A stretch of DNA of 64,000 bases from an uncultured delta proteobacterium (lineage in GTDB: Bacteria > Desulfobacterota > RBG-13-43-22): the NCBI GenBank assembly GCA_963711835.1, contig CAVQFQ010000005.1:329759-393758 (forward strand), read 5' to 3'. Shown piece by piece: positions 5,452 to 37,064 of the stretch (position 1 is its first letter; the number at the start of each line of letters is the position of its first letter). The notes below the pieces were generated by a model, which was given only the letters and a program-made list of their open reading frames with translations, did no database searches and had not been told where the DNA came from. The translations under genes were made by a program, and so were the position numbers.

Positions 5452-6201
5452 CTATTTTTTTTTCTTCAACTGTCCGGCAACGGCCTCCGTGGCCCGCTTC
5501 ACCGCCTCCGGGTCTCCTAGGTAATAACTCCGAATGGGCTTCAAATCTTCTTCCAATTCGTAAACCAGAGGGATTCCGGTTGGGATATTCAGACCGACGA
5601 TCCGGTCGTCCGGGATCTTGTCCAGATATTTGACCAAGGCCCGCAGGCTGTTTCCATGGGCGGCGATTAATATCCGCTTCCCCTGCCGCACCGCCGGAGT
5701 AATGGTTTCATGCCAGTATGGCAAGAAACGTTCCACAGTGTCCTTCAGACATTCGCTGAGGGGAATTTCTTCGGGCCGGAGATCGGCATAACGGGGGTCA
5801 TTGCCCGAGTAGCGCGGATCCCTGGTCGTCAGCTCCGGGGGCCGGATATCGTAACTGCGGCGCCAGATCTTGACCTGCTCCATCCCGTGCTTTTCGGCGG
5901 TCTCGGCTTTATTAAGCCCTTGAAGGGCCCCGTAATGGCGCTCATTCAGCCGCCAGTTGTGAATGATCGGAATCCACATCAGGTCCATCTCCTCCAGGAC
6001 AATCCAGAGGGTTTTGATGGCCCGTTTAAGCACCGAGGTGAAAGCCAGGTCAAAAATAAACCCTTCCCCGGCCAGAACACGGCCGCCCTCAACGGCCTCC
6101 TCTACCCCCTTTTCACTGAGGCCCACATCGGTCCAGCCGGTAAAACGATTCTCTTTATTCCAGGTGCTCTCACCATGGCGGAGCAGGACTATTTTTTTCA
6201 T
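5452..6201 (-). CDS. gpmA: 2,3-bisphosphoglycerate-dependent phosphoglycerate mutase
   Basis: [27 protein letters not shown]. Confidence 0.96.
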
Positions 6202-7870: not shown

Positions 7871-8007
7871 AAAATCCGAAACAATCTCTAAATTCAAATG
7901 ATCAAAACTCCAATCAGAACGGGCCGGTGATTTGGATGGCCAGTTTTGAGACTTTGAAATTCGGTCATTTGAATTTGTTTCGGATTTCGAGTTCGGATTT
8001 CGAATTT
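7871..8007. repeat. Imperfect inverted repeat with heptamer-like arms between convergent malQ and queF
   Basis: aaatccgaaacaa...aaattcaaatgatc pairs with ggtcatttgaatttgtttcggattt, followed by cgagttcggatttcgaattt. Confidence 0.6.
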
Positions 8008-8040
8008 AATCCCCTCTTGGCTGGGTTAGGGATAGGGGGA

Positions 8041-8827
8041 TTACTGTCTGGGGGTTCGGATATTTCTCGGAATTTCCATTTCGTAATTGGTTCGGAAAGG
8101 ATTGATGTCGATCCCCCCGCGGCGGGTGTAGCGGGCATAGACGGTCAGTTTTTCAGGCCGGCAACGGCGGCTGAGGTCCAGGAAGATCCTTTCCACGCAG
8201 GTCTCGTGAAAGGCTTGGTGCTGTCTGAACGAAATGAGATATTTCAGAAGTCCGGTCCGTTCCATCACCGGGCCCCGATAGCGGATCTGGATACCGGCCC
8301 AGTCCGGTTGGCCGGTGATCGGACAGTTGGTCTTGAATAGATCGGAGGTCAGGGTTTCCTCTACGATCTCCTTCTTCACCGCCAGGAATCCCGGGTCCAC
8401 CCGATAGCGGGAAACTTTCACCTCCAGATGATCCAGGGTTTCTCCTTGAAGGGTCTCGATCCGTTCCCCTCCAAAAATCTCCGGCAACTTGAGGACCACT
8501 TGAACCGGGCTTCCTGAAACCCGGGTCCAGATCTTCGGTTATCCGCGACTGCAACCCGGCGGTACTTTCAAACAGGGTCTGGTTCAAGGAATTCAGATAG
8601 AGCTTTAGAGATTTGGACTCGATAAGATGGGGGGAATCTGCCGGGAAAAAAAAGTCGGCCAAAGCGATTTTGGGTTTGCCCTGCTGGTTCAGCCAGGATA
8701 ATTCATAGGCGGTCCAGATATCCCAGCCCCAAAAGGGCAAAGGATCAGTCAGACCCATTTCAGCCCGCTGGGGTCGGCGAGGAATGGGACAGAGCAACTC
8801 GGGATCAATGCGGTCTTTATAAGCCAC
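8041..8827 (-). CDS. queF: NADPH-dependent preQ0 reductase QueF, long type (apparent +1 frameshift near 8527)
   Basis: WTAYELSWLN, IESKSLKLYLNS, NCPITGQPDW, FHETCVERIF, YTRRGGIDINPFR. Confidence 0.92.
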
Positions 8828-9496: not shown

Positions 9497-11245
9497 ATGA
9501 CGATGGTTAAGGCAAAACATGATGTTGATGTTCTTGAAAAATGCCCGACGGGCATCAAGGGTCTCGATGAGATCACGAAGGGAGGGCTTCCGAAAGGCAG
9601 GCCAACCCTGATCTGCGGCAGTGCGGGTTCCGGCAAAACACTTTTCGCCATGGAGTTTCTCATGCGGGGCGCCATGGATTACGGAGAACCCGGGGTCTTC
9701 ATGACCTTCGAGGAGACGCCGGAGGATCTCGCGAAGAACTTCATCTCCCTTGGTTTTGATCTCCATGACATGATGTCGCGTGGTCTCATCGCAACGGACC
9801 ACGTCTACATCGAGCGAAGCGAGATTGAGGAGACGGGTGAGTACGACCTGGAAGGATTGTTCATCCGCCTGGGGAATGCCATTGATTCCATCGGAGCGAA
9901 GCGGGTTGTCTTGGATACCATAGAAGCACTTTTCTCCGGGCTGTCTAATGCCGCTATCATTCGGGCAGAGCTTCGCCGGCTTTTTCACTGGTTGAAAGAC
10001 CGCGGTGTGACGGCCATCGTTACGGGGGAAAGCGGCGACAAGACCCTGACACGCTACGGGCTCGAAGAATACGTCGCCGATTGCGTGATCCTCCTCGACT
10101 TCCGCATCGAGGAGCAAATTTCCACCCGCCGCCTGCGTATTGTCAAGTACCGCGGCTCATCTCACGGCGCCGACGAGTATCCCTTCCTGATCGACGAGAG
10201 AGGCCTCTCTATCCTGCCCATCACTTCCCTGGGGCTCGACTACCCCGTTTCCACGGAGCGCATCTCCACGGGCGTCCCCAAGTTGGATGCCATGCTTGAT
10301 GGGAAGGGGTTCTACCGGGGCAGCACCATCCTCGTCTCCGGTACAGCGGGCACAGGCAAAACAAGTTTGTCGGCTACCTTTGCCGACGCCGCCTGCCGGC
10401 GAGGTGAGCGCTGCCTGTATTTTGCCTTCGAGGAATCGCCCAGCCAGATCATCCGGAACATGGGCTCCATCGGCATGGATCTCGCCCGGTGGGTGAAGAA
10501 GGGGCTTCTCAAGTTTCATTCAGCCCGGCCTTCGCTTTACGGCCTGGAGATGCATCTTGTCACCTTCCACAAGGTGATCGAGGAGTTCAATCCCCAGGTT
10601 TTCATTGTAGACCCGATCAGCAACCTGAGCGCCGCGGGAACAGCATCAGAGGTCAAATCCATATTAACGCGCCTGATCGACTATTTGAAGATGAAAAAGA
10701 TCTCTACTTTCCTTACGGACCTCACCCATTTTGGAGGCAGCCTTGAACACACGAGCGAAGAGATATCTTCTCTGATCGATACGTGGCTTCTCCTCCGGGA
10801 TATCGAACTCAATGGGGAACGCAACCGGGGCCTCTACATTTTGAAGTCCCGCGGCATGGCCCACTCCAACCAGATTCAAGAGTTCCTGCTCACGAACCAG
10901 GGCATTGACCTTATCGACATCTATACCGGTTCCGGCGAGGTATTAACCGGCAGTGCCCGGGCAGCCCAGGAAGCCGGGGAAAAGGCCTCTGAGCTGGCAC
11001 GCCGGCGTGAGGCGGATCGCAGGCTCCGCGAGCAGGAGCGCAAGAGGAAGGCCCTGGAAGCAAAGATCGCAGCCCTCCGTGCCGAGTTCGATGTGGAATC
11101 TGAAGAGGTGCATTTGATGGCGGAAGAAGAGCGAAAAAGACAAGCTGTCCTGGCAGAAGACCGTTTAGAAATGGCGCATCTTCGCAAGGGGAAACCTTCA
11201 GCGTCCGGCGAAGCGCTCGAAAAAGAAGAGGGAAAGGAGAGTAAG
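9497..11245 (+). CDS. kaiC: Circadian clock protein KaiC (double RecA domain, C-terminal coiled coil); reads in frame into kaiB in this sequence
   Basis: Two P-loops GSAGSGKT and GTAGTGKT, catalytic EE pairs, ISSLIDTW phosphosite motif, [10 protein letters not shown], long charged helical tail. Confidence 0.95.
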
Positions 11246-11578
11246 ATGAAAGCTGTCTCACCAGGAAAGGGGAAGAAAGCAAAGACCGATGCGACAGAAG
11301 AAATCTGGAATCTCCGGTTATATGTAGCCGGTCAGACCCAGAAATCGATTACGGCCTTTGCTAATTTAAAGAAGATCTGCGAAGAGCACCTCGCGGGGAA
11401 ATACCGCATTGAAGTGATAGACCTTTTAAAGAATCCCCAGCTTGCCAAAGGGGACCAGATTATTGCCATACCGACACTGGTAAGGAAGCTTCCTGAACCG
11501 CTTAAAAAGATTATCGGAGATCTGGCTAACACAGAGCGCGTGCTGGTGGGACTCGACATTCGTTCTGTCTCCGGATGA
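11246..11578 (+). CDS. kaiB: KaiB (copy 1), with its own RBS and ATG inside the kaiC ORF
   Basis: [46 protein letters not shown]...IIGDL; AAGGAG upstream of ATG 11246. Confidence 0.93.
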
Positions 11579-11604
11579 TAAAATCAATTTTGGAGTAACA
11601 GCCG

Positions 11605-11949
11605 ATGGAGAGGAAAAGAGGGAAAACGAGCACTGAGGAATTCGAAAAAGCGGCAGCGAAGCGAGACCGGGCAAAGTACGTTCTTCGGCTGTATGTTACC
11701 GGGATGACCCCAAAGTCAACCCAGGCAATCGCCAATGTCCAGAAACTCTGTGAAAAACACCTGGCAGGCCGCTACGAACTCAAGGTGATAGACATCTACC
11801 AGCAGCCCAAGCTGGCCAAGGGAGAGCAGATTATTGCCACCCCAACGCTCATCAAGAAACTCCCCCTGCCGCTCCGGAAGCTCATCGGCGACATGTCGGA
11901 TACGGAAAGGTTTCTTGTCGGCATCGATCTGAAACCCAAGAATTCATGA
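11605..11949 (+). CDS. kaiB: KaiB (copy 2)
   Basis: [46 protein letters not shown]. Confidence 0.93.
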
Positions 11950-11959
11950 GTACGAATCA

Positions 11960-14128
11960 ATGAACAAATCGGATAGAACACGCCAGCAACTTTTGGATGA
12001 GTTGCAGGAACTCACATCGCGGATGATGGAAGCTGAGGAAACTCTGCGCGCTATCCGAGGCGGTGAGGTGGATGGTCTGGTTGTCTCAACGGCGGAAGGA
12101 GATCGGGTCTTTACACTATCGGGCGCCGATCATCCTTACCGGGTCATGGTCGAAACCATGAACGAAGGGGCCGTCACCCTGGCCTCCGACGGCACGATCC
12201 TTTTCTGTAACCAACGTTTTGCAGATATCGTCAAAGGGTCTCTGGAAAAAGTAATAGGATCTTCAATCTACCAATACATTTCATCAACAGACCTTCAATT
12301 ATTTGAGGCATTGCTTGAGCAGGGTTTAAAGGGGAACAGTAAGGGGGAACTGGCCTTACAGGCCGGAGGTGAAAATTCTGTACCTGTCTTACTTTCCGTA
12401 AGTCCCCTTCAGCGCACGGATATGCCCGGTGCGGTGTGCGCCGTAATGGTGGACATCACCGAGCGCAAGAAGATGGAGGAGGCGCTAAAGATTTCTGAAA
12501 CTCGCTACCGCCGTCTCTTTGAAGCAGCCCAAGATGGAATATTAATCCTCGATGCCGAGACAGGACAAATAGTGGATGTTAACCCATTCTTGTTAGAAAT
12601 GTTGGGTTATTCACATGAGGAGCTCTTAGGGAAGAAACTCTGGGAAATTGGCACCTTTAGAGATATTGAAGCATCGAAAGCCACCTCTTCGGAATTGAAG
12701 AGCAAAGGATATGTTCGCTACCATGATTTACCGCTTGAGACGAAAGACGGACGGCCAATTGCCGTGGAATTTGTCAGTAATGTCTATCTGGTCAATCATC
12801 ATAAAGTGATTCAGTGTAACATCCGCGACACCACTGAACGGAAACTTATAGCAGAGGCTTTAAAAAAATCTCACAACGAACTGGAACGACAAGCTGTCGA
12901 ACTTCGGACGGCTCTTTCTGAAATCAAAACAATGAAAGACCAACTCGAGGCCGAGAATATTTACTTCCGTCAAGAGAACAAAATGAAACATCAATTTGAG
13001 CATATTCTCGGGCAAAGTGATGGTCTCAAGTATGTTCTCTATCGAGCGGAGCAGGTCGCTCCTCCGAACACAACGGTCCTCATCCTCGGTGAGACCGGTA
13101 CGGGAAAGGAACTGATCGCTGCCGCCATCCACAACATGAGCCCCCGCAAGGATCGGCCGTTGATCACCGTCAACTGTGCCGCCCTGCCGGGCAATTTAAT
13201 TGAGAGCGAATTGTTCGGCCGGGAGAAGGGGGCATTTACCGGGGCCGATACCCGGCAGATAGGCCGTTTCGAGGTCGCCCATGGTTCCACCCTTTGCCTG
13301 GACGAGATCGGAGAGCTGCCGCTGGAGGTGCAGGCCAAGCTACTCCGGGTGATCCAGCATAACGAGTTTGAGCGCCTGGGCTCGTCCCATACCGTCAAAG
13401 TCGATGTACGGATCGTGGCAACGACCAATCGAAACCTTGAGGAAGAGGTCCGCAAGGGCCGGTTTCGGCAGGACCTTTACTATCGGCTCAACGTCTTCCC
13501 CATCACGGTTCCTCCTTTACGGCAGCGGAAAGAAGACATCCCGCTGATGGTCCAGGCCTTCATAGAACGGTATTCCAGGAAATTGGGCAAACAGATCACG
13601 TCGATCCAGAAGGAGACGATGAAGGCGCTGCAGGATTACCCGTGGCCCGGGAACGTCCGGGAGCTGGAAAGCATCATTGAACGGGCCGTGATCTTGTGCC
13701 CCGGGCCGGTCTTGCAGTTGGCAGATAAACTGGAAGTTTCATCCCCCCCACTCTCATCCGCCGTGAGAACCCTGGAAGAGACGGAGCGAAACCAAATTCT
13801 TAAGATCCTTTCAGAAACCCGATGGCGCATCGAGGGAAAGGATGGGGCCGCAGCGATCCTGGGCCTCCACCCGAGTACCTTGAGGGCCAGAATGCATAAG
13901 CTCGGGATACTCCCGGCCGAAGACCCGAAAGTCAGATTAATTGTCCGGCACCCCTCAAAGGTCTCCTCAATATATGGAGGACCCACCAAATATGGAGGTC
14001 CAACTCATCGTTTCAACCTTCTTTGCTATTCTCTCCTATTAATACAACTCCACGATATCAGGACTGATTCCAAACTTCTGCTTTTTTCGGATTTTTGGCA
14101 ACCCCTTTGCATTAACTATTTTCTATGA
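11960..14128 (+). CDS. Sigma54-dependent enhancer-binding protein: coiled coil-PAS-PAS-AAA+-Fis HTH (true stop probably TAA 13938-13940)
   Basis: [77 protein letters not shown]; two PAS domains; no receiver domain. Confidence 0.93.
13953..14111 (+). promoter_or_regulatory. Sigma54 enhancer-promoter cassette, copy 1 (upstream of cls)
   Basis: CCTCAATATATGGAGG (13965-13980) + CCACCAAATATGGAGG (13983-13998); TGGCAACCCCTTTGCA (14096-14111). Confidence 0.85.
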
Positions 14129-15543
14129 TCCTGGTCGTCATAAGCATGAAGATTATCAAGCCGTTTTTATTGTTCTGGCTGTCGCTTTCCATTTTGAGCC
14201 TTAGCGGGTGTGCGTCCTTGCCGAATGTTTCTGAAAAAATTCAGGAAGCGCCCCTTAGCCAGAAATCTCCTCAAATCCTTTCGGCCAAAGGACTGTTGTC
14301 TCCCAAACAGAGCAAAGCCCTCATGGAACGACTGAAGCGATCCGTCGACCCGACGGATATGCTGCAACGTTATATCGCCGTAATAGAATCGGTGAGTGAA
14401 AGCCCCTTGACCAAAGGGAACAAAGTCACTTTGCTCGTTGATGGTCCAGCCACTTATGCCGCCATGTTCAAAGCGGTAGAGAATGCCCGCGACCATATCA
14501 ATCTCGAAACGTTTACCATGGAAGATATTGTAGATGAAACGGGGATGAAACTTGCCGATCTATTGTTACAAAAACAGGCGGCCGGTGTTCAGGTGAATAT
14601 CCTTTATGACAGCCTAGGCAGTTACACTACTCCCGCCTCCTTTTTTCAACGCCTGCGCGACGGTGGGATTCAGGTGACCGAATTTAACCCGATAAATCCA
14701 CTTAAGGCTCGCGGAAAATGGCGCTTGGCCAAATCGGATCACCGCAAGATTTTGATCGTCGACGGCAAGGTCGCCTTTACCGGGGGCGTCAACATCAGCC
14801 AGGTTTATTCGAGCGGGCTTTCTGGAAGGCGGGAACAGGACCAGACCCAAATCCCATGGCGGGATACCGACGTTCGAATTGAGGGCCCGGCTGTGGCTGA
14901 GTTCCAAAAACTTTTTCTGGAAACGTGGCAGAGACAGATGGGTGCGAAGATCTCCGAACGGAATTACTTCCCCGATTTAATAAAAAATGAGGGAAATACT
15001 CTGGTGGGGGTGGTCGGCAGCAGTCCAGGAGAGGCCAACAGGATTACTTTTATTCTGTATGTGTCCGCCATCACCTTTGCAGAAAATTCGCTTCATATGA
15101 CCAATGCCTATTTTGTCCCCGACCACCAGACAGTAGATGCCCTCACGGAGGCTGCTAAGCGCGGGGTCGATGTGAAGATCATTCTTCCCGGAACCACCGA
15201 TTCTTCGCTGGCCCAATATGCAGGACAATATTTTTATTCCGAGCTTTTGAAATCGGGGGTAAAGCTATACCGGCGTCACAATGTCCTCCTACATGCAAAA
15301 ACTCTGGTCATTGACGACATCTGGGCGACAGTCGGCTCTACTAATATGGATTTCTGGAGCTTTTCAAGCAATGACGAAGTGAACGCGGTTATTCTGAGCC
15401 GCGAGTTTGCTATGGAAATGGAGAAGATGTTTGCCGCGGATCTTGCGGAGTCGGGCGAGATTCGACGGGAAGAATGGGAAAAAAGACCTCTGCTTTCCAA
15501 GATTCGGGAGTGGGCAGCCTATTTATTCTCACACTGGCTATAG
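14125..15543 (+). CDS. cls: Cardiolipin synthase / PLD-family protein with lipoprotein-like N-terminus (ClsB-like)
   Basis: Two HKD motifs ([22 protein letters not shown]), WRDT, LSGC lipobox. Confidence 0.88.
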
Positions 15544-20220: not shown

Positions 20221-20380
20221 CCTCAAAGTTTCCCTCAATATAATGAGGCTCCGCCAAATATGGAGGTCCAACCCATCGTTTCAACCCTCTTTCCTGTTCT
20301 CTTCTGTTAATCAAACCCTCTGATATCAGGCTTGATTTCCGACTTTTTCTTTTTCCCAGGCTGTTGGTAAGCTACTTGCA
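20221..20380 (+). promoter_or_regulatory. Sigma54 enhancer-promoter cassette, copy 2
   Basis: CCTCAATATAATGAGG (20233-20248) + CCGCCAAATATGGAGG (20251-20266); TGGTAAGCTACTTGCA (20365-20380). Confidence 0.85.
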
Positions 20381-22267: not shown

Positions 22268-22426
22268 CCTCAAAGATTCCCACAATATATGGAGGTTCCA
22301 CCAGATATTGAGGTCAAAAAATAGTTTCAACCTTCTTTACTAATCTCTCCTGTTCATCTAACTATACGATATCAAGTTTGATTCCAGACTTTTTCTTTTC
22401 CACAGGTTGTTGGTAAACTACTTGCA
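22268..22426 (+). promoter_or_regulatory. Sigma54 enhancer-promoter cassette, copy 3
   Basis: CCACAATATATGGAGG (22280-22295) + CCACCAGATATTGAGG (22298-22313); TGGTAAACTACTTGCA (22411-22426). Confidence 0.85.
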
Positions 22427-29591: not shown

Positions 29592-29751
29592 CCTCAAAGA
29601 TCTCCTCAATATATGGAGGTTCCACCAAATAGTGAGGCCAAGAAATAGTTTCAACCTTCTTCGCGATTCCCTACTTTTAATCTAATTTATTGATATTAAT
29701 AGATGATTCCAAACTTCCGCTCTTTCGCAAGCTGCTGGTAGGTTACTTGCA
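29592..29751 (+). promoter_or_regulatory. Sigma54 enhancer-promoter cassette, copy 4
   Basis: CCTCAATATATGGAGG (29604-29619) + CCACCAAATAGTGAGG (29622-29637); minus-strand TATCAATAAATTA IHF consensus at 29683-29695; TGGTAGGTTACTTGCA (29736-29751). Confidence 0.85.
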
Positions 29752-36501: not shown

Positions 36502-36662
36502 CCTCCTCCGCAGTTCCCTCCATATCTGGAGGTTCCTCCAAATATGGAGGCCCACCCGTAATTTCCAACATCCCCACCTTTCCCGTCTATCAATTTAACC
36601 TTCTGTTATTAATAGATGTTTCCAGATCAGGCGAATTCCCGGTTGTTGGCAACCTCTTTGCA
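36502..36662 (+). promoter_or_regulatory. Sigma54 enhancer-promoter cassette, copy 5 (most divergent spacer)
   Basis: CCTCCATATCTGGAGG (36517-36532) + CCTCCAAATATGGAGG (36535-36550); TGGCAACCTCTTTGCA (36647-36662). Confidence 0.85.
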
Positions 36663-36674
36663 GTTGCTAATTTT

Positions 36675-37064
36675 ATGATCCTGGTCACCATACGAATGAA
36701 GATTTCTGCTGCCAAGCGCCGAGAGCTGTCACAGACCATTGCTTCACTGATCGGTTCCATGAAAACGGAGCCGGGATGTCGGCGCTTCGACTTTTGCCAG
36801 AATGTGGAGAATGAAAATGAGCTCTATCTTCTTGAGGAATGGGAAAACCAGGAAAATCTTAAAAACCACCTGATGTCGGAGCGTTTTAGGGTACTGCGCG
36901 GGGCCATGAACCTTCTTCAGGAGCCCTATGAGCTGCAATTTCACACCCTTTTCCACCCGTCGAGGATGGAGGCTTTAATTAAATGGATTGATGAACCTAC
37001 CCAGGAAGGACCGAAAAGAAGAGGATGTTTGGACGAAGGGCCTTATTGGCTAATTAAACACTAA
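36675..37064 (+). CDS. ABM (antibiotic biosynthesis monooxygenase)-domain protein
   Basis: EPGC..F, LLEEWE..E.L..HL.S..F; no Shine-Dalgarno. Confidence 0.82.
   Translation: MILVTIRMKISAAKRRELSQTIASLIGSMKTEPGCRRFDFCQNVENENELYLLEEWENQENLKNHLMSERFRVLRGAMNLLQEPYELQFHTLFHPSRMEALIKWIDEPTQEGPKRRGCLDEGPYWLIKH

What the first reader, a model, noticed from the sequence alone, without database searches (positions are those of the whole stretch)
11960..12480. Kai-associated N-terminal module grafted onto a sigma54 activator
The activator begins with a coiled coil and [19 protein letters not shown]...[12 protein letters not shown] leading into PAS1. From memory (unverified) this segment heads PAS histidine kinases encoded right after kaiB genes in non-cyanobacterial kaiBC loci. 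Here it is joined to AAA+/HTH with no phosphorelay domain, so it may be a portable Kai-output docking module, functionally analogous to the KaiB-like N-terminus of SasA.
Basis: inference. Interest (0 to 1): 0.72.

Follow-up and report, generated by a model that had tools for sequence, protein, structure and literature searches.

The report
Kai-linked head on sigma-54 activator
A short, strongly conserved protein head that occurs almost only on proteins encoded right after the clock gene kaiB sits here on a sigma-54 gene activator, which likely lets a KaiB/KaiC timer switch a neighbouring block of stress genes directly, without the usual kinase relay.

Summary
The ORF at 11960 begins with a heptad helix, the motif [10 protein letters not shown], a beta-hairpin and PYR. 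It then runs into PAS1, PAS2, a sigma-54 AAA+ domain and a Fis-type HTH, with no kinase or receiver domain. It starts 10 nt after kaiB2, in a kaiC-kaiB1-kaiB2 operon.

The recalled link to Kai holds. In 77 of 79 related loci from more than ten phyla, a kaiB ends within 182 nt upstream. In two unbiased genome samples, all 34 assessable strong matches lie directly after kaiB.

The head is portable. It stands on HisKA, HisKA_3, HWE and hybrid kinases, on GGDEF, SpoIIE and LuxR-type proteins, and on stand-alone PAS proteins. It also heads the kinase after kaiB in Cereibacter sphaeroides KD131, the studied KaiBC model. The sigma-54 form is a minority type but common in Thermodesulfobacteriota.

New here: five cassettes, each a paired palindrome plus a -24/-12 promoter, lie downstream in front of stress and envelope genes. 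Such cassettes occur in 18 of 25 sigma-54-type relatives and 0 of 33 kinase-type loci.

The kaiC-kaiB-PAS/kinase operon is in print. My searches found neither the head motif nor a sigma-54 output. This scan had noted the layout before on other DNA.

The parts
9497..11578 (+). kaiC: two KaiC ATPase domains and a C-terminal coiled-coil tail. In this assembly it reads in frame into kaiB1 as one 693-aa ORF.
   Evidence: PF06745 scores 1.7e-111 in two stretches, and PF07689 matches at 607-688. It is the only double-domain KaiC in the genome. The in-frame join comes from a 2-nt gap near 11201 relative to a 98%-identical relative and others. RNA-library contigs of relatives carry the 2 extra bases.
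11246..11578 (+). kaiB1, the KaiB paralogue next to kaiC. It has its own ATG at 11246.
   Evidence: PF07689 scores 4.5e-26 and the ATG position comes. In relatives it is a separate ORF of about 110 aa. KaiB1 rows form one clade across phyla in a quick tree (SH-aLRT 95).
11605..11949 (+). kaiB2, the KaiB paralogue directly before the activator (114 aa).
   Evidence: PF07689 scores 4.3e-27. The AF2 model is beta-alpha-beta-alpha-beta-beta-alpha with pLDDT above 90 in the core. Its best PDB matches are KaiB of Legionella, KaiB-RS on KaiC-RS and fold-switch-stabilised KaiB. An N-terminal F-E-K-A type helix is present in 34 of 61 KaiB2 against 1 of 40 KaiB1.
11960..13940 (+). Sigma-54 activator (bEBP). 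It is about 659 aa once the +1 frameshift at 13913 is allowed for. As a plain ORF it runs to 14128.
   Evidence: GAFTGA lies at 424-429 and Walker A GETGTGKE at 377-384. The frameshift is shown. Relatives are 659 aa.
11960..12142 (+). N-terminal segment (residues 1-61): heptad helix 8-33, invariant core [10 protein letters not shown] (nt 12044-12073), beta-hairpin 39-52, then PYR.
   Evidence: Alignment A1 has A, I, G, D, Y and R invariant. The AF2 model shows helix 8-33 and strands 39-44 and 47-52, with the hairpin at pLDDT 50-65. No PDB sequence relative covers it.
12143..12469 (+). PAS1, which always follows the segment. Together they form the constant head.
   Evidence: PF08448 matches residues 65-170. 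PAS follows the segment in every relative that is long enough and in 73 of 74 representatives. pLDDT is 87-94.
12503..12838 (+). PAS2
   Evidence: PF00989 and PF13426 match residues 182-293. PAS2 is missing in the 524-544-aa relatives.
13004..13504 (+). Sigma-54 interaction AAA+ domain
   Evidence: PF00158 scores 1e-71 at residues 349-515.
13769..13900 (+). Fis-type HTH (HTH_8)
   Evidence: PF02954 matches residues 604-647.
13965..14111 (+). Cassette 1: paired palindromic sites CCTCAATATATGGAGG (13965) and CCACCAAATATGGAGG (13983), with the -24/-12 element TGGCAACCCCTTTGCA (14096) 131 nt downstream.
   Evidence: The same cassette lies about 155-160 nt after the activator stop in relatives.
14125..15543 (+). 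First gene after cassette 1: a PLD-like lipoprotein. Its first 7 codons (MILVVIS) are those of the ABM gene that follows the cassette in relatives.
   Evidence: PF13091 and PF00614 match. Comparison with relatives is, and the ABM family assignment.
20233..20380 (+). Cassette 2 (sites at 20233 and 20251, promoter at 20365)
22280..22426 (+). Cassette 3 (sites at 22280 and 22298, promoter at 22411). It precedes genes for LTXXQ, BON, DUF6600, AI-2E-transporter and BrkB-type proteins.
29604..29751 (+). Cassette 4 (sites at 29604 and 29622, promoter at 29736). It precedes a triple-BON protein, an acetyl-CoA hydrolase/GNAT protein and FtsH.
36517..36662 (+). Cassette 5 (sites at 36517 and 36535, promoter at 36647). 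It precedes the ABM gene (36675-37064) and a DUF883 gene.

Best explanation
The first 170 residues of this sigma-54 activator (a coiled-coil helix, the invariant AIRGGEVD turn, a beta-hairpin and PAS1) are a conserved head found almost only on proteins encoded directly after kaiB; this head likely docks the activator onto the KaiB/KaiC timer, most probably through KaiB2, and that docking would gate assembly of the AAA+ domain.

Shown directly: the head and its conservation; its position right after kaiB across phyla; its exchange between effector domains; an intact bEBP core (Walker A, GAFTGA, HTH) with no receiver or kinase domain; rpoN in the genome; and five near-identical cassettes of paired palindromes plus a -24/-12 promoter downstream, of a kind seen only beside the sigma-54 form of the protein.

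Inferred: that the head touches a Kai protein; that the partner is KaiB2 in its thioredoxin-like fold, perhaps by adding the hairpin to an edge strand as KaiA and CikA are recalled to do; that the timer state releases or imposes repression of the AAA+ ring; and that this activator binds the palindromes and drives the five promoters in front of stress and envelope genes (PLD-like lipoprotein, LTXXQ, BON, DUF883, ABM, FtsH). If so, the timer output reaches RNA polymerase in one protein, without phosphotransfer.
For: Operon: the kaiB2 stop is at 11949 and the activator start at 11960, and kaiC and two kaiB genes lie upstream. These are the only KaiB and double-domain KaiC genes in the genome, and the head is single copy.

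Related loci: 77 of 79 have a kaiB hit ending within 182 nt before the head on the same strand. One has it 1,991 nt upstream and one has none. 70 of 79 also have kaiC upstream.

Unbiased sample of the window's own phylum (401 genomes): of 27 strong matches of a PAS-free 47-column profile, 26 lie within 600 nt downstream of a KaiB match and 1 sits at a contig start. Second phylum sample (301 genomes): 8 of 8 strong matches lie directly after kaiB. Each of five far-apart genomes has exactly one copy.

Portability: the 79 ORFs comprise 28 sigma-54 activators, 34 kinases (HisKA, HisKA_3, HisKA_2/HWE; 9 of them hybrids with REC), 1 GGDEF protein, 1 PAS-GAF protein, 12 that are PAS-only or cut, and 3 fragments. 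Of 74 representatives, 58 have HATPase_c, 2 Sigma54_activat, 1 SpoIIE and 1 GerE.

Conservation: the core is 88-92% identical across phyla, the whole segment 58-60% and PAS1 34-36%.

Structure: the hairpin is the only low-confidence part of the monomer model, as expected of a part that needs a partner.

Co-divergence: the 7 kaiB-adjacent heads that match only profile positions 2-30 sit beside the most divergent KaiBs (32-64 bits, against 76-102 bits).

Output side: the palindrome has 7 matches in the window against 0.29 expected. In the genome all matches with at most 1 mismatch lie in this 23-kb stretch. The five cassettes align over about 190 nt with 130-132 nt spacing. Cassettes occur in 18 of 25 sigma-54-type loci and 0 of 33 kinase-type loci. 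rpoN is present.

Transcripts: RNA-library contigs of close relatives bridge the kaiB2/activator junction in two studies. This is weak, because contigs do not prove one transcript.
Against: Related loci are largely orthologous, so shared gene order is partly inheritance. The counts are not independent events.

One canonical head (L049, a 1454-aa kinase on a 7-kb contig beside a ParB-like gene) has no kaiB within 2.6 kb.

Degenerate heads without AIRGGEVD exist in genomes with no KaiB match (G286, G299, G384) or far from kaiB (G138 C74), so the scaffold can live without Kai.

Many KaiB loci have no such gene: 15-16 of 48 KaiB genomes in the first sample and 29-30 of 40 in the second.

Nothing distinguishes KaiB2 from KaiB1 or KaiC as the partner. 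Single-KaiB operons carry a KaiB1-like KaiB next to the head.

The -24/-12 pattern alone is not above chance in the window (21 found, 24.2 expected). Only its pairing with the palindrome is.

That this activator, and not another one, binds the palindromes rests on co-occurrence.
Confidence: 0.5

Rival explanations
1. The head docks on KaiC itself (the CI ring, the CII ring or the C-terminal coiled-coil tail) and not on KaiB. Its heptad helix would pair with the coiled-coil extension of this KaiC type, and KaiB would compete or cooperate, as SasA and KaiB do on cyanobacterial KaiC.
For: The head begins with a clear heptad helix, and this KaiC carries a long coiled-coil tail. The very high conservation of the core (88-92%) fits a partner as conserved as KaiC, which is 56-67% identical across phyla, while KaiB2 is 39-63%. 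70 of 79 loci have kaiC upstream.
Against: The tightest linkage is to kaiB. Three loci with 8 kb of upstream DNA keep kaiB before the head but show no kaiC (L017, L050, L063). The gene always follows kaiB, usually by 9-100 nt. The one experimental precedent for PAS proteins is binding to KaiB.
Confidence: 0.2
2. The head is an input or tuning device, not an output. PAS1 would sense a metabolite or redox signal, and the protein would act on KaiB fold switching or KaiC cycling as KidA does in cyanobacteria. The effector domain would then respond to the PAS signal and not to the timer state.
For: [quoted passage not shown] Stand-alone head proteins of about 237 aa with no effector follow kaiB in four Bacteroidales loci. 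One representative carries the head on a PAS x3-GGDEF-EAL protein, which is KidA's type of architecture.
Against: Most members carry a signalling effector (58 of 74 representatives are kinases), which fits an output more simply. The sigma-54 form comes with its own promoter cassettes next door. Input and output are not exclusive.
Confidence: 0.15
3. There is no physical contact. Any coupling would be indirect, for example through ATP/ADP or co-expression.
For: The segment never occurs without PAS1. Degenerate versions head large multi-PAS kinases in genomes without KaiB. N-terminal helices that dimerise PAS domains are common (the PDB fold matches are PAS/LOV domains with flanking helices).
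Against: A mere dimerisation helix would not keep an invariant AIRGGEVD turn and hairpin at 88-92% identity from archaea to Planctomycetes while the PAS domain drifts to 35%. The motif is lost exactly in the copies that are not next to kaiB. Single copy per genome and strict adjacency hold while the effector changes.
Confidence: 0.12

Closest known systems
kaiC-kaiB-PAS/histidine-kinase operon of purple bacteria (Rhodopseudomonas palustris, Rhodobacter/Cereibacter sphaeroides; PMC4794148; the KaiBC hourglass of PMC10076222)
   Same: It is KaiA-less with kaiC before kaiB, the KaiC has a coiled-coil tail, and a PAS protein is encoded right after kaiB. The C. sphaeroides KD131 kinase RSKD131_RS21470 begins with the same head (...EAEETLKAIRQGDVDALVV...) 6 nt after kaiB.
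   Different: Here the effector is a sigma-54 AAA+/HTH activator, not an HWE kinase. There are two KaiB paralogues instead of one, and a set of cognate promoter cassettes lies next door. The papers name the operon but, in the passages I read, say nothing about the head. The main text of PMC10076222 has no occurrence of 'histidine kinase', 'operon' or 'SasA'.
SasA, the cyanobacterial clock-output kinase with an N-terminal KaiB-like domain
   Same: A Kai-directed adaptor sits at the N-terminus of a signalling effector, and its presumed role is output of the timer.
   Different: SasA's adaptor is a thioredoxin-like KaiB mimic that binds KaiC CI (recalled; the SasA N-domain appears among the fold matches of KaiB2, not of the head). 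The head here is a helix, a hairpin and a PAS domain with no KaiB family match. There is no kinase.
KidA, a multi-PAS GGDEF-EAL protein of Synechococcus elongatus (PMC9478674)
   Same: N-terminal PAS domains bind fold-switched KaiB, and the effector domains are not needed for that (passages). Its discussion notes that PAS genes lie beside kai genes outside cyanobacteria.
   Different: KidA tunes the period and is not reported there as co-operonic with kaiB. Whether it has the AIRGGEVD segment could not be tested here, because its sequence was not at hand.
Bacterial enhancer-binding proteins with sensory N-termini (NifA, FhlA, NorR, DmpR and NtrC types)
   Same: The protein has an AAA+ sigma-54 domain with GAFTGA, a C-terminal HTH, upstream activating sites about 130 nt from a -24/-12 promoter, and an N-terminal regulatory region that would gate ring assembly (family knowledge).
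   Different: The regulatory region is the Kai-linked head and not a receiver, GAF or V4R domain. The presumed signal is a protein timer. JGI's name 'formate hydrogenlyase transcriptional activator' for relatives is a similarity label only.

Membership tests
Bacterial enhancer-binding protein (sigma-54 activator) | Sigma-54 interaction AAA+ domain with Walker A and a GAFTGA loop | tested here: met
   PF00158 scores 1e-71 at residues 349-515. GETGTGKE lies at 377-384 and GAFTGA at 424-429.
Bacterial enhancer-binding protein (sigma-54 activator) | C-terminal DNA-binding HTH | tested here: met
   PF02954 HTH_8 matches residues 604-647. The frameshift at 13913 lies behind it.
Bacterial enhancer-binding protein (sigma-54 activator) | Sigma-54 in the genome and -24/-12 promoters with upstream sites | tested here: met
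   rpoN is found on contig C14 (PF04552, 5.2e-59). There are five cassettes of paired palindromes plus a -24/-12 element. Cassettes occur in 18 of 25 sigma-54-type relatives and 0 of 33 kinase-type loci. These are sequence features only. Binding and transcription were not tested.
Kai-linked head (unnamed; heads the PAS protein after kaiB in KaiA-less operons) | N-terminal heptad helix, AIRGGEVD turn, hairpin and (P)YR, directly followed by a PAS domain | tested here: met
   The window row is 51-98% identical to the 37 other rows of A1.
Kai-linked head (unnamed; heads the PAS protein after kaiB in KaiA-less operons) | Gene lies directly downstream of kaiB on the same strand | tested here: met
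   The kaiB2 stop is at 11949 and the start at 11960. The same holds in 77 of 79 loci and in 34 of 34 assessable strong matches in two genome samples.
Kai-linked head (unnamed; heads the PAS protein after kaiB in KaiA-less operons) | Binds a Kai protein | not testable with these tools
No coordinates or contact maps are returned by the single-chain fold.
SasA-type output protein | N-terminal KaiB-like (thioredoxin-like) domain | tested here: not met
   There is no PF07689 match in the activator. The model of residues 1-60 is one helix plus a hairpin.
SasA-type output protein | HisKA/HATPase_c kinase core | tested here: not met
   None was found at E<=0.01.
NtrC-type response-regulator bEBP | N-terminal receiver domain | tested here: not met
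   There is no PF00072 match.
KidA-type KaiB-binding multi-PAS protein | Sequence relationship of the N-terminal PAS region to KidA | not tested
Only passages of the paper were read.

The most novel reading that the evidence does not exclude
The [23 protein letters not shown]1 head is the general output adaptor of KaiA-less KaiBC timers in bacteria and archaea. It clamps onto fold-switched KaiB (the dedicated paralogue KaiB2 where there are two) and passes the timer state to whatever effector follows. In Thermodesulfobacteriota this gives a clock output with no phosphorelay: the timer directly gates a sigma-54 activator, which fires a dedicated island of stress and dormancy operons in non-phototrophic anaerobes.
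Probability: 0.4. Interest if true: 0.85.

Novelty: new variant of a known kind. Interest (0 to 1): 0.66.

Why it matters
KaiC/KaiB systems without KaiA are widespread outside cyanobacteria, and one has been taken apart biochemically as an hourglass timer. What they control, and how the signal leaves the timer, is still open.

This locus offers a concrete handle on both questions. The first is a 60-residue head with an invariant motif that marks the protein after kaiB. It occurs in thousands of sequences from many phyla, including the studied Cereibacter sphaeroides operon. The second is a version in which that head is fused straight to a transcription activator whose likely binding sites, promoters and target genes can be read off the DNA.

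Timer to head to sigma-54 promoter is a short chain, and it can be rebuilt in E. coli or in vitro. The target genes (BON, LTXXQ, DUF883, ABM, PLD-like, FtsH) suggest that a timed or energy-gated envelope and stress programme in soil and peat anaerobes is what such timers are for.

Tried and rejected
There is therefore no result for or against binding.

As a stand-in I aligned a natural read-through ORF (L055, with kaiB2 and the head in one frame) with KaiB2 rows and head rows for a single-chain fold. MAFFT laid the head rows onto the KaiB columns, so I dropped it and folded nothing. That read-through is probably an indel artefact, because its PAS domain is also cut by a frameshift.

- A PDB profile search and Foldseek with the head found only PAS/LOV domains and nothing for residues 1-56.
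- I looked for natural KaiB-head fusions among 10 representatives whose match is not N-terminal. None had a KaiB domain.
- The search for homologous proteins with the profile and the listing of cluster members gave no organism names that helped.
- The -24/-12 pattern alone is not enriched in the window (21 found against 24.2 expected). It was used only together with the palindrome.
- RNA runs were available only as contigs. They cannot show starts, strand or level. There was no cover over 14020-14250 or behind 15637, and I draw nothing from that.
- The careful tree search did not finish, so the quick tree was used. My row for the window's KaiB1 was cut out of frame and is meaningless.
- The AF2 model of KaiB2 has the thioredoxin-like fold. 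I do not count this as evidence of a locked fold-switched state, because AlphaFold is recalled to favour that state for KaiB anyway.
- Paper searches for KaiB+KaiC+sigma-54 (0 papers), the motif string (0 papers), KaiC+enhancer-binding protein (11 papers; none of the 8 listed is on this subject by its title) and KaiB+KaiC+HWE (3 papers, none on this by title) found no description. Subscription journals and supplements were not searched.
Full report
WHAT IS THERE

The finding lies in a four-gene block on the + strand.
- An ORF at 9497-11578 holds a double-domain KaiC (PF06745, 1.7e-111), a long coiled-coil tail and a KaiB domain (PF07689, residues 607-688).
- kaiB2 lies at 11605-11949 (PF07689, 4.3e-27).
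- Pfam finds in that ORF PAS_4 (65-170), PAS (182-293), Sigma54_activat (349-515, 1e-71), AAA_lid_14 (521-589) and HTH_8 (604-647).
- It finds no kinase, receiver or KaiB domain.
- Walker A (GETGTGKE, 377-384) and the GAFTGA loop (424-429) are intact.

The genome has 28 contigs, 3.9 Mb, and is 89% complete.
- It holds no other KaiB, no other double-domain KaiC and no second copy of the N-terminal segment.
- It does have rpoN.

Two details of the assembly need correcting.
- The activator ORF is 722 aa only because of a +1 shift after ...MHKLGIL at 13913.
  - Relatives end 8-9 residues later at 659 aa.
  - The other frame of the window reads [12 protein letters not shown].
  - A contig of a relative runs on with the expected ending at that point (table 7).
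- The apparent KaiC-KaiB1 fusion comes from a 2-nt gap near 11201.
  - The gap is relative to a 98%-identical relative (L043) and to L014; L025 differs there by 1 nt. In these relatives kaiC stops at or over the kaiB1 start.
  - Contigs of relatives from four RNA libraries carry two extra bases at 11201-11206 (table 4).
  - KaiB1 keeps its own ATG at 11246.

IS THE SEGMENT REAL AND SPECIAL?

Yes.
- With residues 1-64 as the query, 568 proteins of 397-1264 aa pass E<=0.01. The best 120 are 88-98% identical over those 64 residues.
  - Most of the 120 are 659-aa sigma-54 activators.
  - Some are HisKA_3 kinases.
- A filter-free HMMER scan of 1.84 billion cluster representatives gives 4123 hits at E<=1e-3 and 584 at E<=1e-10. 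The match is nearly always at residues 1-64 of the hit.
- An alignment of 38 non-redundant segments (47 columns, no PAS) has A, I, G, D, Y and R invariant. Its consensus is ..[22 protein letters not shown]....G..VFTL.GA.HPYR.
- Identity across phyla:
  - the core [10 protein letters not shown]: 88-92%;
  - the whole segment: 58-60%;
  - PAS1: 34-36%.
- AlphaFold2 on a 77-row alignment gives a helix at 8-33, a hairpin at 39-44 and 47-52, and then a confident PAS fold.
  - The hairpin region is the only part with low confidence, pLDDT 50-65.
- No PDB sequence matches profile positions before about 57. Foldseek finds only PAS and LOV domains.

IS IT TIED TO KAI?

Related loci from one genome per species:
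- 79 loci came back (102 were confirmed and the best 80 kept).
- They include Thermodesulfobacteriota, Planctomycetota, Verrucomicrobiota, Acidobacteriota, Bacteroidota, Actinomycetota, Chloroflexota, Binatota, Myxococcota, Pseudomonadota, Elusimicrobiales, Spirochaetota and two archaeal lineages.
- 78 have a kaiB upstream on the same strand. In 77 it ends within 182 nt of the head, and in L038 it lies 1,991 nt away.
- 70 also have kaiC.
- Of the 9 without a kaiC hit:
  - five have less than 1.5 kb of upstream DNA;
  - three (L017, L050, L063) have 8 kb and keep only kaiB;
  - one (L049) has neither.
- L049 is a 1454-aa kinase on a 7-kb contig next to a ParB-like gene and a run of N.

These loci are the best matches and so largely orthologues. 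I therefore ran a blind test with the PAS-free profile A1 and the Pfam KaiB model on the same genome samples.

Sample of the window's own phylum (401 genomes): 43 matches in 40 genomes.
- Of the 27 strong matches (E<=1e-15), 26 have a KaiB match within 600 nt upstream on the same strand.
- One strong match sits at base 2 of its contig and cannot be assessed.
- Of the 16 weak matches, 7 are also directly after kaiB and 9 are not.

Second phylum sample (301 genomes): 8 of 8 strong matches are directly after kaiB.
- So are two of the 7 weaker matches.
- One weaker match lies on a different contig from its genome's kaiBs.
- The other four are partial matches at E>=1.8e-4 in genomes without KaiB.

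Five far-apart genomes each have exactly one copy.

I fetched six of the non-adjacent matches.
- Three, from the window's own family, keep the second hairpin strand and HPYR but have lost the AIRGGEVD turn (for example ...LRPVHKNEITA...).
- One is degenerate in the same place.
- One has a KaiC-like hit right upstream.
- One is an internal helix.

The rule that emerges is that canonical heads sit after kaiB, and copies elsewhere have lost the motif. L049 is the one canonical exception.

The converse does not hold. By my count from the coordinates:
- 32 of the 48 KaiB-bearing genomes in the first sample have an adjacent head gene (33 counting G244, whose head and kaiB genes lie on different contigs);
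- 10-11 of 40 do in the second sample;
- many of the rest have a different layout, with two kaiB genes about 2 kb apart.

A NAMED MODEL ORGANISM

A protein search of the plasmid collection hit seven Cereibacter sphaeroides plasmids.
- On pRSKD131A of strain KD131 the annotation reads kaiC (RS21460), KaiB-family protein (RS21465) and HWE histidine kinase (RS21470). The kinase starts 6 nt after kaiB.
- Its translation begins ...IDELRRRLHEAEETLKAIRQGDVDALVV..., which is the head in a somewhat diverged form.
- Pararhizobium qamdonense plasmid p3 has kaiC, kaiB, a second KaiB-family gene and then a canonical head on a protein annotated 'response regulator'.

The head is present in the species whose KaiBC hourglass has been solved (PMC10076222). 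The main text of that paper never mentions a histidine kinase, an operon or SasA.

IS IT PORTABLE?

Yes, but as segment plus PAS1.

The 79 ORFs:
- 28 have Sigma54_activat.
- 34 are kinases of the HisKA, HisKA_3 or HisKA_2/HWE type, and 9 of these are hybrids with a receiver.
- 1 ends in GGDEF.
- 1 is PAS plus GAF.
- 12 are PAS-only or cut by a contig end or frameshift. Four of these are 237-239-aa Bacteroidales proteins.
- 3 are fragments.

74 cluster representatives were scanned. They are those of at least 330 aa that fit the 50,000-residue limit, out of 106 such among the 149 newly listed.

| Family | Representatives (of 74) |
|---|---|
| PAS | 73 |
| HATPase_c | 58 |
| HisKA | 32 |
| HisKA_3 | 18 |
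| HisKA_2 | 8 |
| Response_reg | 10 |
| GAF | 9 |
| Sigma54_activat | 2 |
| SpoIIE | 1 |
| GerE | 1 |

The sigma-54 form is thus a minority architecture at the level of sequence clusters. It is common as near-identical copies in Thermodesulfobacteriota and was also seen in a Planctomycetia MAG.

THE TWO KAIBS

Most loci have kaiC, kaiB1, kaiB2 and then the head gene.

Tree method:
- It is a quick tree of 88 rows.
- I dropped rows outside 90-145 aa and most near-duplicates from L013-L045.
- My own row for the window's KaiB1 was mis-framed and must be ignored.

What the tree shows:
- The 42 KaiB1 rows form one clade across phyla (SH-aLRT 95).
- The two single KaiBs of Pseudomonadota are its neighbours.
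- All other KaiB2 rows lie outside that clade.

KaiB2 features:
- It carries an N-terminal helix of the F-E-K-A type in 34 of 61 sequences, against 1 of 40 KaiB1.
- Its AF2 model has the beta-alpha-beta-alpha-beta-beta-alpha order.
- Its best structural matches are Legionella KaiB, KaiB-RS bound to KaiC-RS and fold-switch-stabilised KaiB.
- By recall, that is the thioredoxin-like, KaiC-binding fold, and AlphaFold tends to give it for KaiB in any case. I take it as compatible with the model, not as evidence for it.

THE OUTPUT SIDE

This part goes beyond the given coordinates.

Promoter after the activator:
- A -24/-12 element, TGGCAACCCCTTTGCA, lies at 14096, 156 nt behind the corrected stop.
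- I checked 25 of the 28 sigma-54-type loci. L015, L017 and L031 were left out because their ORFs are cut or truncated.
- 18 of the 25 have such an element (GG and GC fixed, at most 2 other mismatches) within 500 nt after the stop, mostly at about 155-160 nt.
- The background is 0.087 per kb per strand.
- The spacer is conserved and holds a 16-bp palindrome, CCTCAATATATTGAGG, with a second, weaker copy 18 nt on.

The palindrome:
- In the window it has 7 matches at up to 3 mismatches, against 0.29 expected.
- They fall at five places, all on the + strand.
- Each is 130-132 nt upstream of one of the -24/-12 matches, at 14096, 20365, 22411, 29736 and 36647.
- The five cassettes align over about 190 nt.
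- In the whole genome, all matches with at most 1 mismatch lie in this 23-kb stretch.

Control:
- Palindrome and promoter at 105-150 nt spacing occur in 18 of 25 sigma-54-type loci (29 cassettes in 288 kb, all co-oriented).
- They occur in 0 of 33 kinase-type loci (437 kb). L060 was left out.
- In L044 the full cassette lies about 300 nt upstream of kaiC. The promoter behind its activator has only a degenerate palindrome.
- The 7 loci without a cassette fall into three groups:
  - three with little DNA behind the gene or a truncated gene (L013, L019, L029);
  - three of the single-PAS 542-544-aa subgroup (L033, L038, L041);
  - L034, of the same subgroup, which has 1.1 kb behind the gene.

Target genes:
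- In relatives the first gene behind the promoter is a 100-110-aa ABM-domain protein.
- In the window that gene follows cassette 5, at 36675.
- The ORF behind cassette 1 keeps its first seven codons (MILVVIS) and then continues as a PLD-like lipoprotein.
- The other genes behind the cassettes include the following:
  - an LTXXQ protein;
  - two BON proteins;
  - DUF6600;
  - an AI-2E-family transporter;
  - a BrkB-type protein;
  - an acetyl-CoA hydrolase-GNAT protein;
  - FtsH;
  - DUF883;
  - a tyrosine-phosphatase-like protein;
  - RNase II.

That this looks like an envelope and stationary-phase stress set is my reading of the family names.

EXPRESSION

Only Logan contigs of RNA libraries were on offer.
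- Laid at 85% likeness, contigs of close relatives cover kaiC, both kaiBs and the activator.
- Contigs bridge the kaiB2/activator junction:
  - one 936-nt contig at about 96% identity (run X2);
  - two contigs of about 295 nt (run X4), from a second study.
- One contig bridges kaiB1 and kaiB2 (table 8).
- Contigs cannot prove a single transcript, and DNA can contaminate such libraries, so this is a weak hint of co-transcription.

HOW IT MOST LIKELY WORKS

The shown facts are listed above. From them I infer three steps.
- The head docks on the timer. KaiB is the likelier partner.
  - The linkage to kaiB survives loss of kaiC.
  - KidA's N-terminal PAS domains bind fold-switched KaiB (PMC9478674, passages).
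  - The most diverged heads sit beside the most diverged KaiBs.
- Docking, or release, changes the dimer-to-hexamer balance of the AAA+ domain, as N-terminal regulatory domains do in other enhancer-binding proteins (family knowledge).
- The activator, bound at the paired palindromes, remodels sigma-54 polymerase at the five promoters.

A hairpin that adds to the exposed edge strand of fold-switched KaiB, as KaiA and CikA are recalled to do, is an attractive picture. No result here bears on it. I give the whole chain 0.5.

The rivals are direct binding to KaiC (0.2), an input or tuning role like KidA's (0.15), and no contact at all (0.12). None of them is excluded.

WHAT IS KNOWN AND WHAT IS NEW

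In print:
- the kaiC-kaiB-PAS/HK operon of R. palustris and R. sphaeroides (PMC4794148, passages);
- the remark that PAS genes accompany kaiBC outside cyanobacteria (PMC9478674, discussion).

Not found in my searches of open-access text (no supplements, no subscription journals):
- any description of the head motif;
- any sigma-54 activator as a Kai partner;
- the promoter cassettes.

Earlier notes of this same scan describe the Kai-sigma-54 layout in at least eight other genomes, including the cassettes and the 'small unnamed segment'. I read them only after my own tests. They agree with those tests and are not independent evidence.

VERDICT

- This is a new variant of a known kind.
- The locus makes the output of KaiA-less timers directly testable.

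Noticed in passing
window 11195-11250: The 693-aa KaiC-KaiB1 'fusion' ORF arises from a 2-nt gap near 11201 relative to a 98%-identical relative (L043) and to L014. L025 differs there by 1 nt. In these relatives kaiC stops at or over the kaiB1 start codon. RNA-library contigs of relatives carry the two extra bases. It is either an assembly error or a very recent fusion. KaiB1 keeps its own ATG at 11246.
   Followed up: partly
window 13898-13940: A +1 frameshift after ...MHKLGIL (13913) adds a spurious 63-residue tail to the activator ORF. Relatives end at 659 aa, and the other frame reads [12 protein letters not shown] at 13938-13940. The HTH is not affected.
   Followed up: yes
window 14125-14150 and 36675-36700: The ORF behind cassette 1 starts with the first seven codons of the ABM gene (MILVVIS) and then continues as a PLD-like lipoprotein. 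The intact ABM gene sits behind cassette 5, 22 kb away. The promoter cassette seems to have been copied together with the start of its gene and placed in front of other genes.
   Followed up: partly
loci L012-L090 (kaiB pairs); window 11246-11949: Two KaiB paralogues in a fixed order (kaiC, kaiB1, kaiB2, head gene) are conserved across phyla. KaiB1 forms one clade in a quick tree. KaiB2 alone carries an N-terminal F-E-K-A type helix (34 of 61 against 1 of 40).
   Followed up: partly
L044:5100-5540: In this relative a full palindrome plus -24/-12 cassette lies about 300 nt upstream of kaiC, which would put the kai operon itself under the activator (a feedback loop). No such cassette was seen before kaiC in the window.
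   Followed up: no
L055:2903-3700: kaiB2 and the head gene are in one open frame (265 aa) on this contig. The PAS domain behind is cut by a frameshift, so the read-through is probably an indel artefact and not a true fusion.
   Followed up: partly
L061, L065, L073, L074 (Bacteroidales), about 7995-8710: Here the protein after kaiB2 is only 237-239 aa: the head plus a short tail with no effector domain found. It may be a stand-alone adaptor or tuner.
   Followed up: no
protein P0266 (786 aa, metagenome): The head lies at residues 108-157 and is followed by three PAS domains, GGDEF and the start of EAL. This is the architecture type of cyanobacterial KidA. Its origin is unknown, and no name is held for it.
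   Followed up: partly
L049:1-2600: This is the only canonical head without kaiB nearby. It heads a 1454-aa multi-PAS kinase on a 7-kb contig beside a ParB-like gene and a run of N, so it may be a mobile element or a mis-join.
   Followed up: partly
L095 (G040:C20) 5764-6190: A degenerate head (…ALQAVRDGQVDAIV…) on a 1439-aa ORF lies right after a KaiC-like hit (45% over 111 aa), with no KaiB match at the threshold used. A sister genome (G366) has a weak KaiB there.
   Followed up: no
second phylum sample, e.g. G535:C26:10763-13146 and G423:C97:16574-18729: Many KaiB-bearing genomes of that phylum have two kaiB matches about 1.9-2.2 kb apart and no head gene. This is a different Kai locus type that does not use the head.
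   Followed up: no
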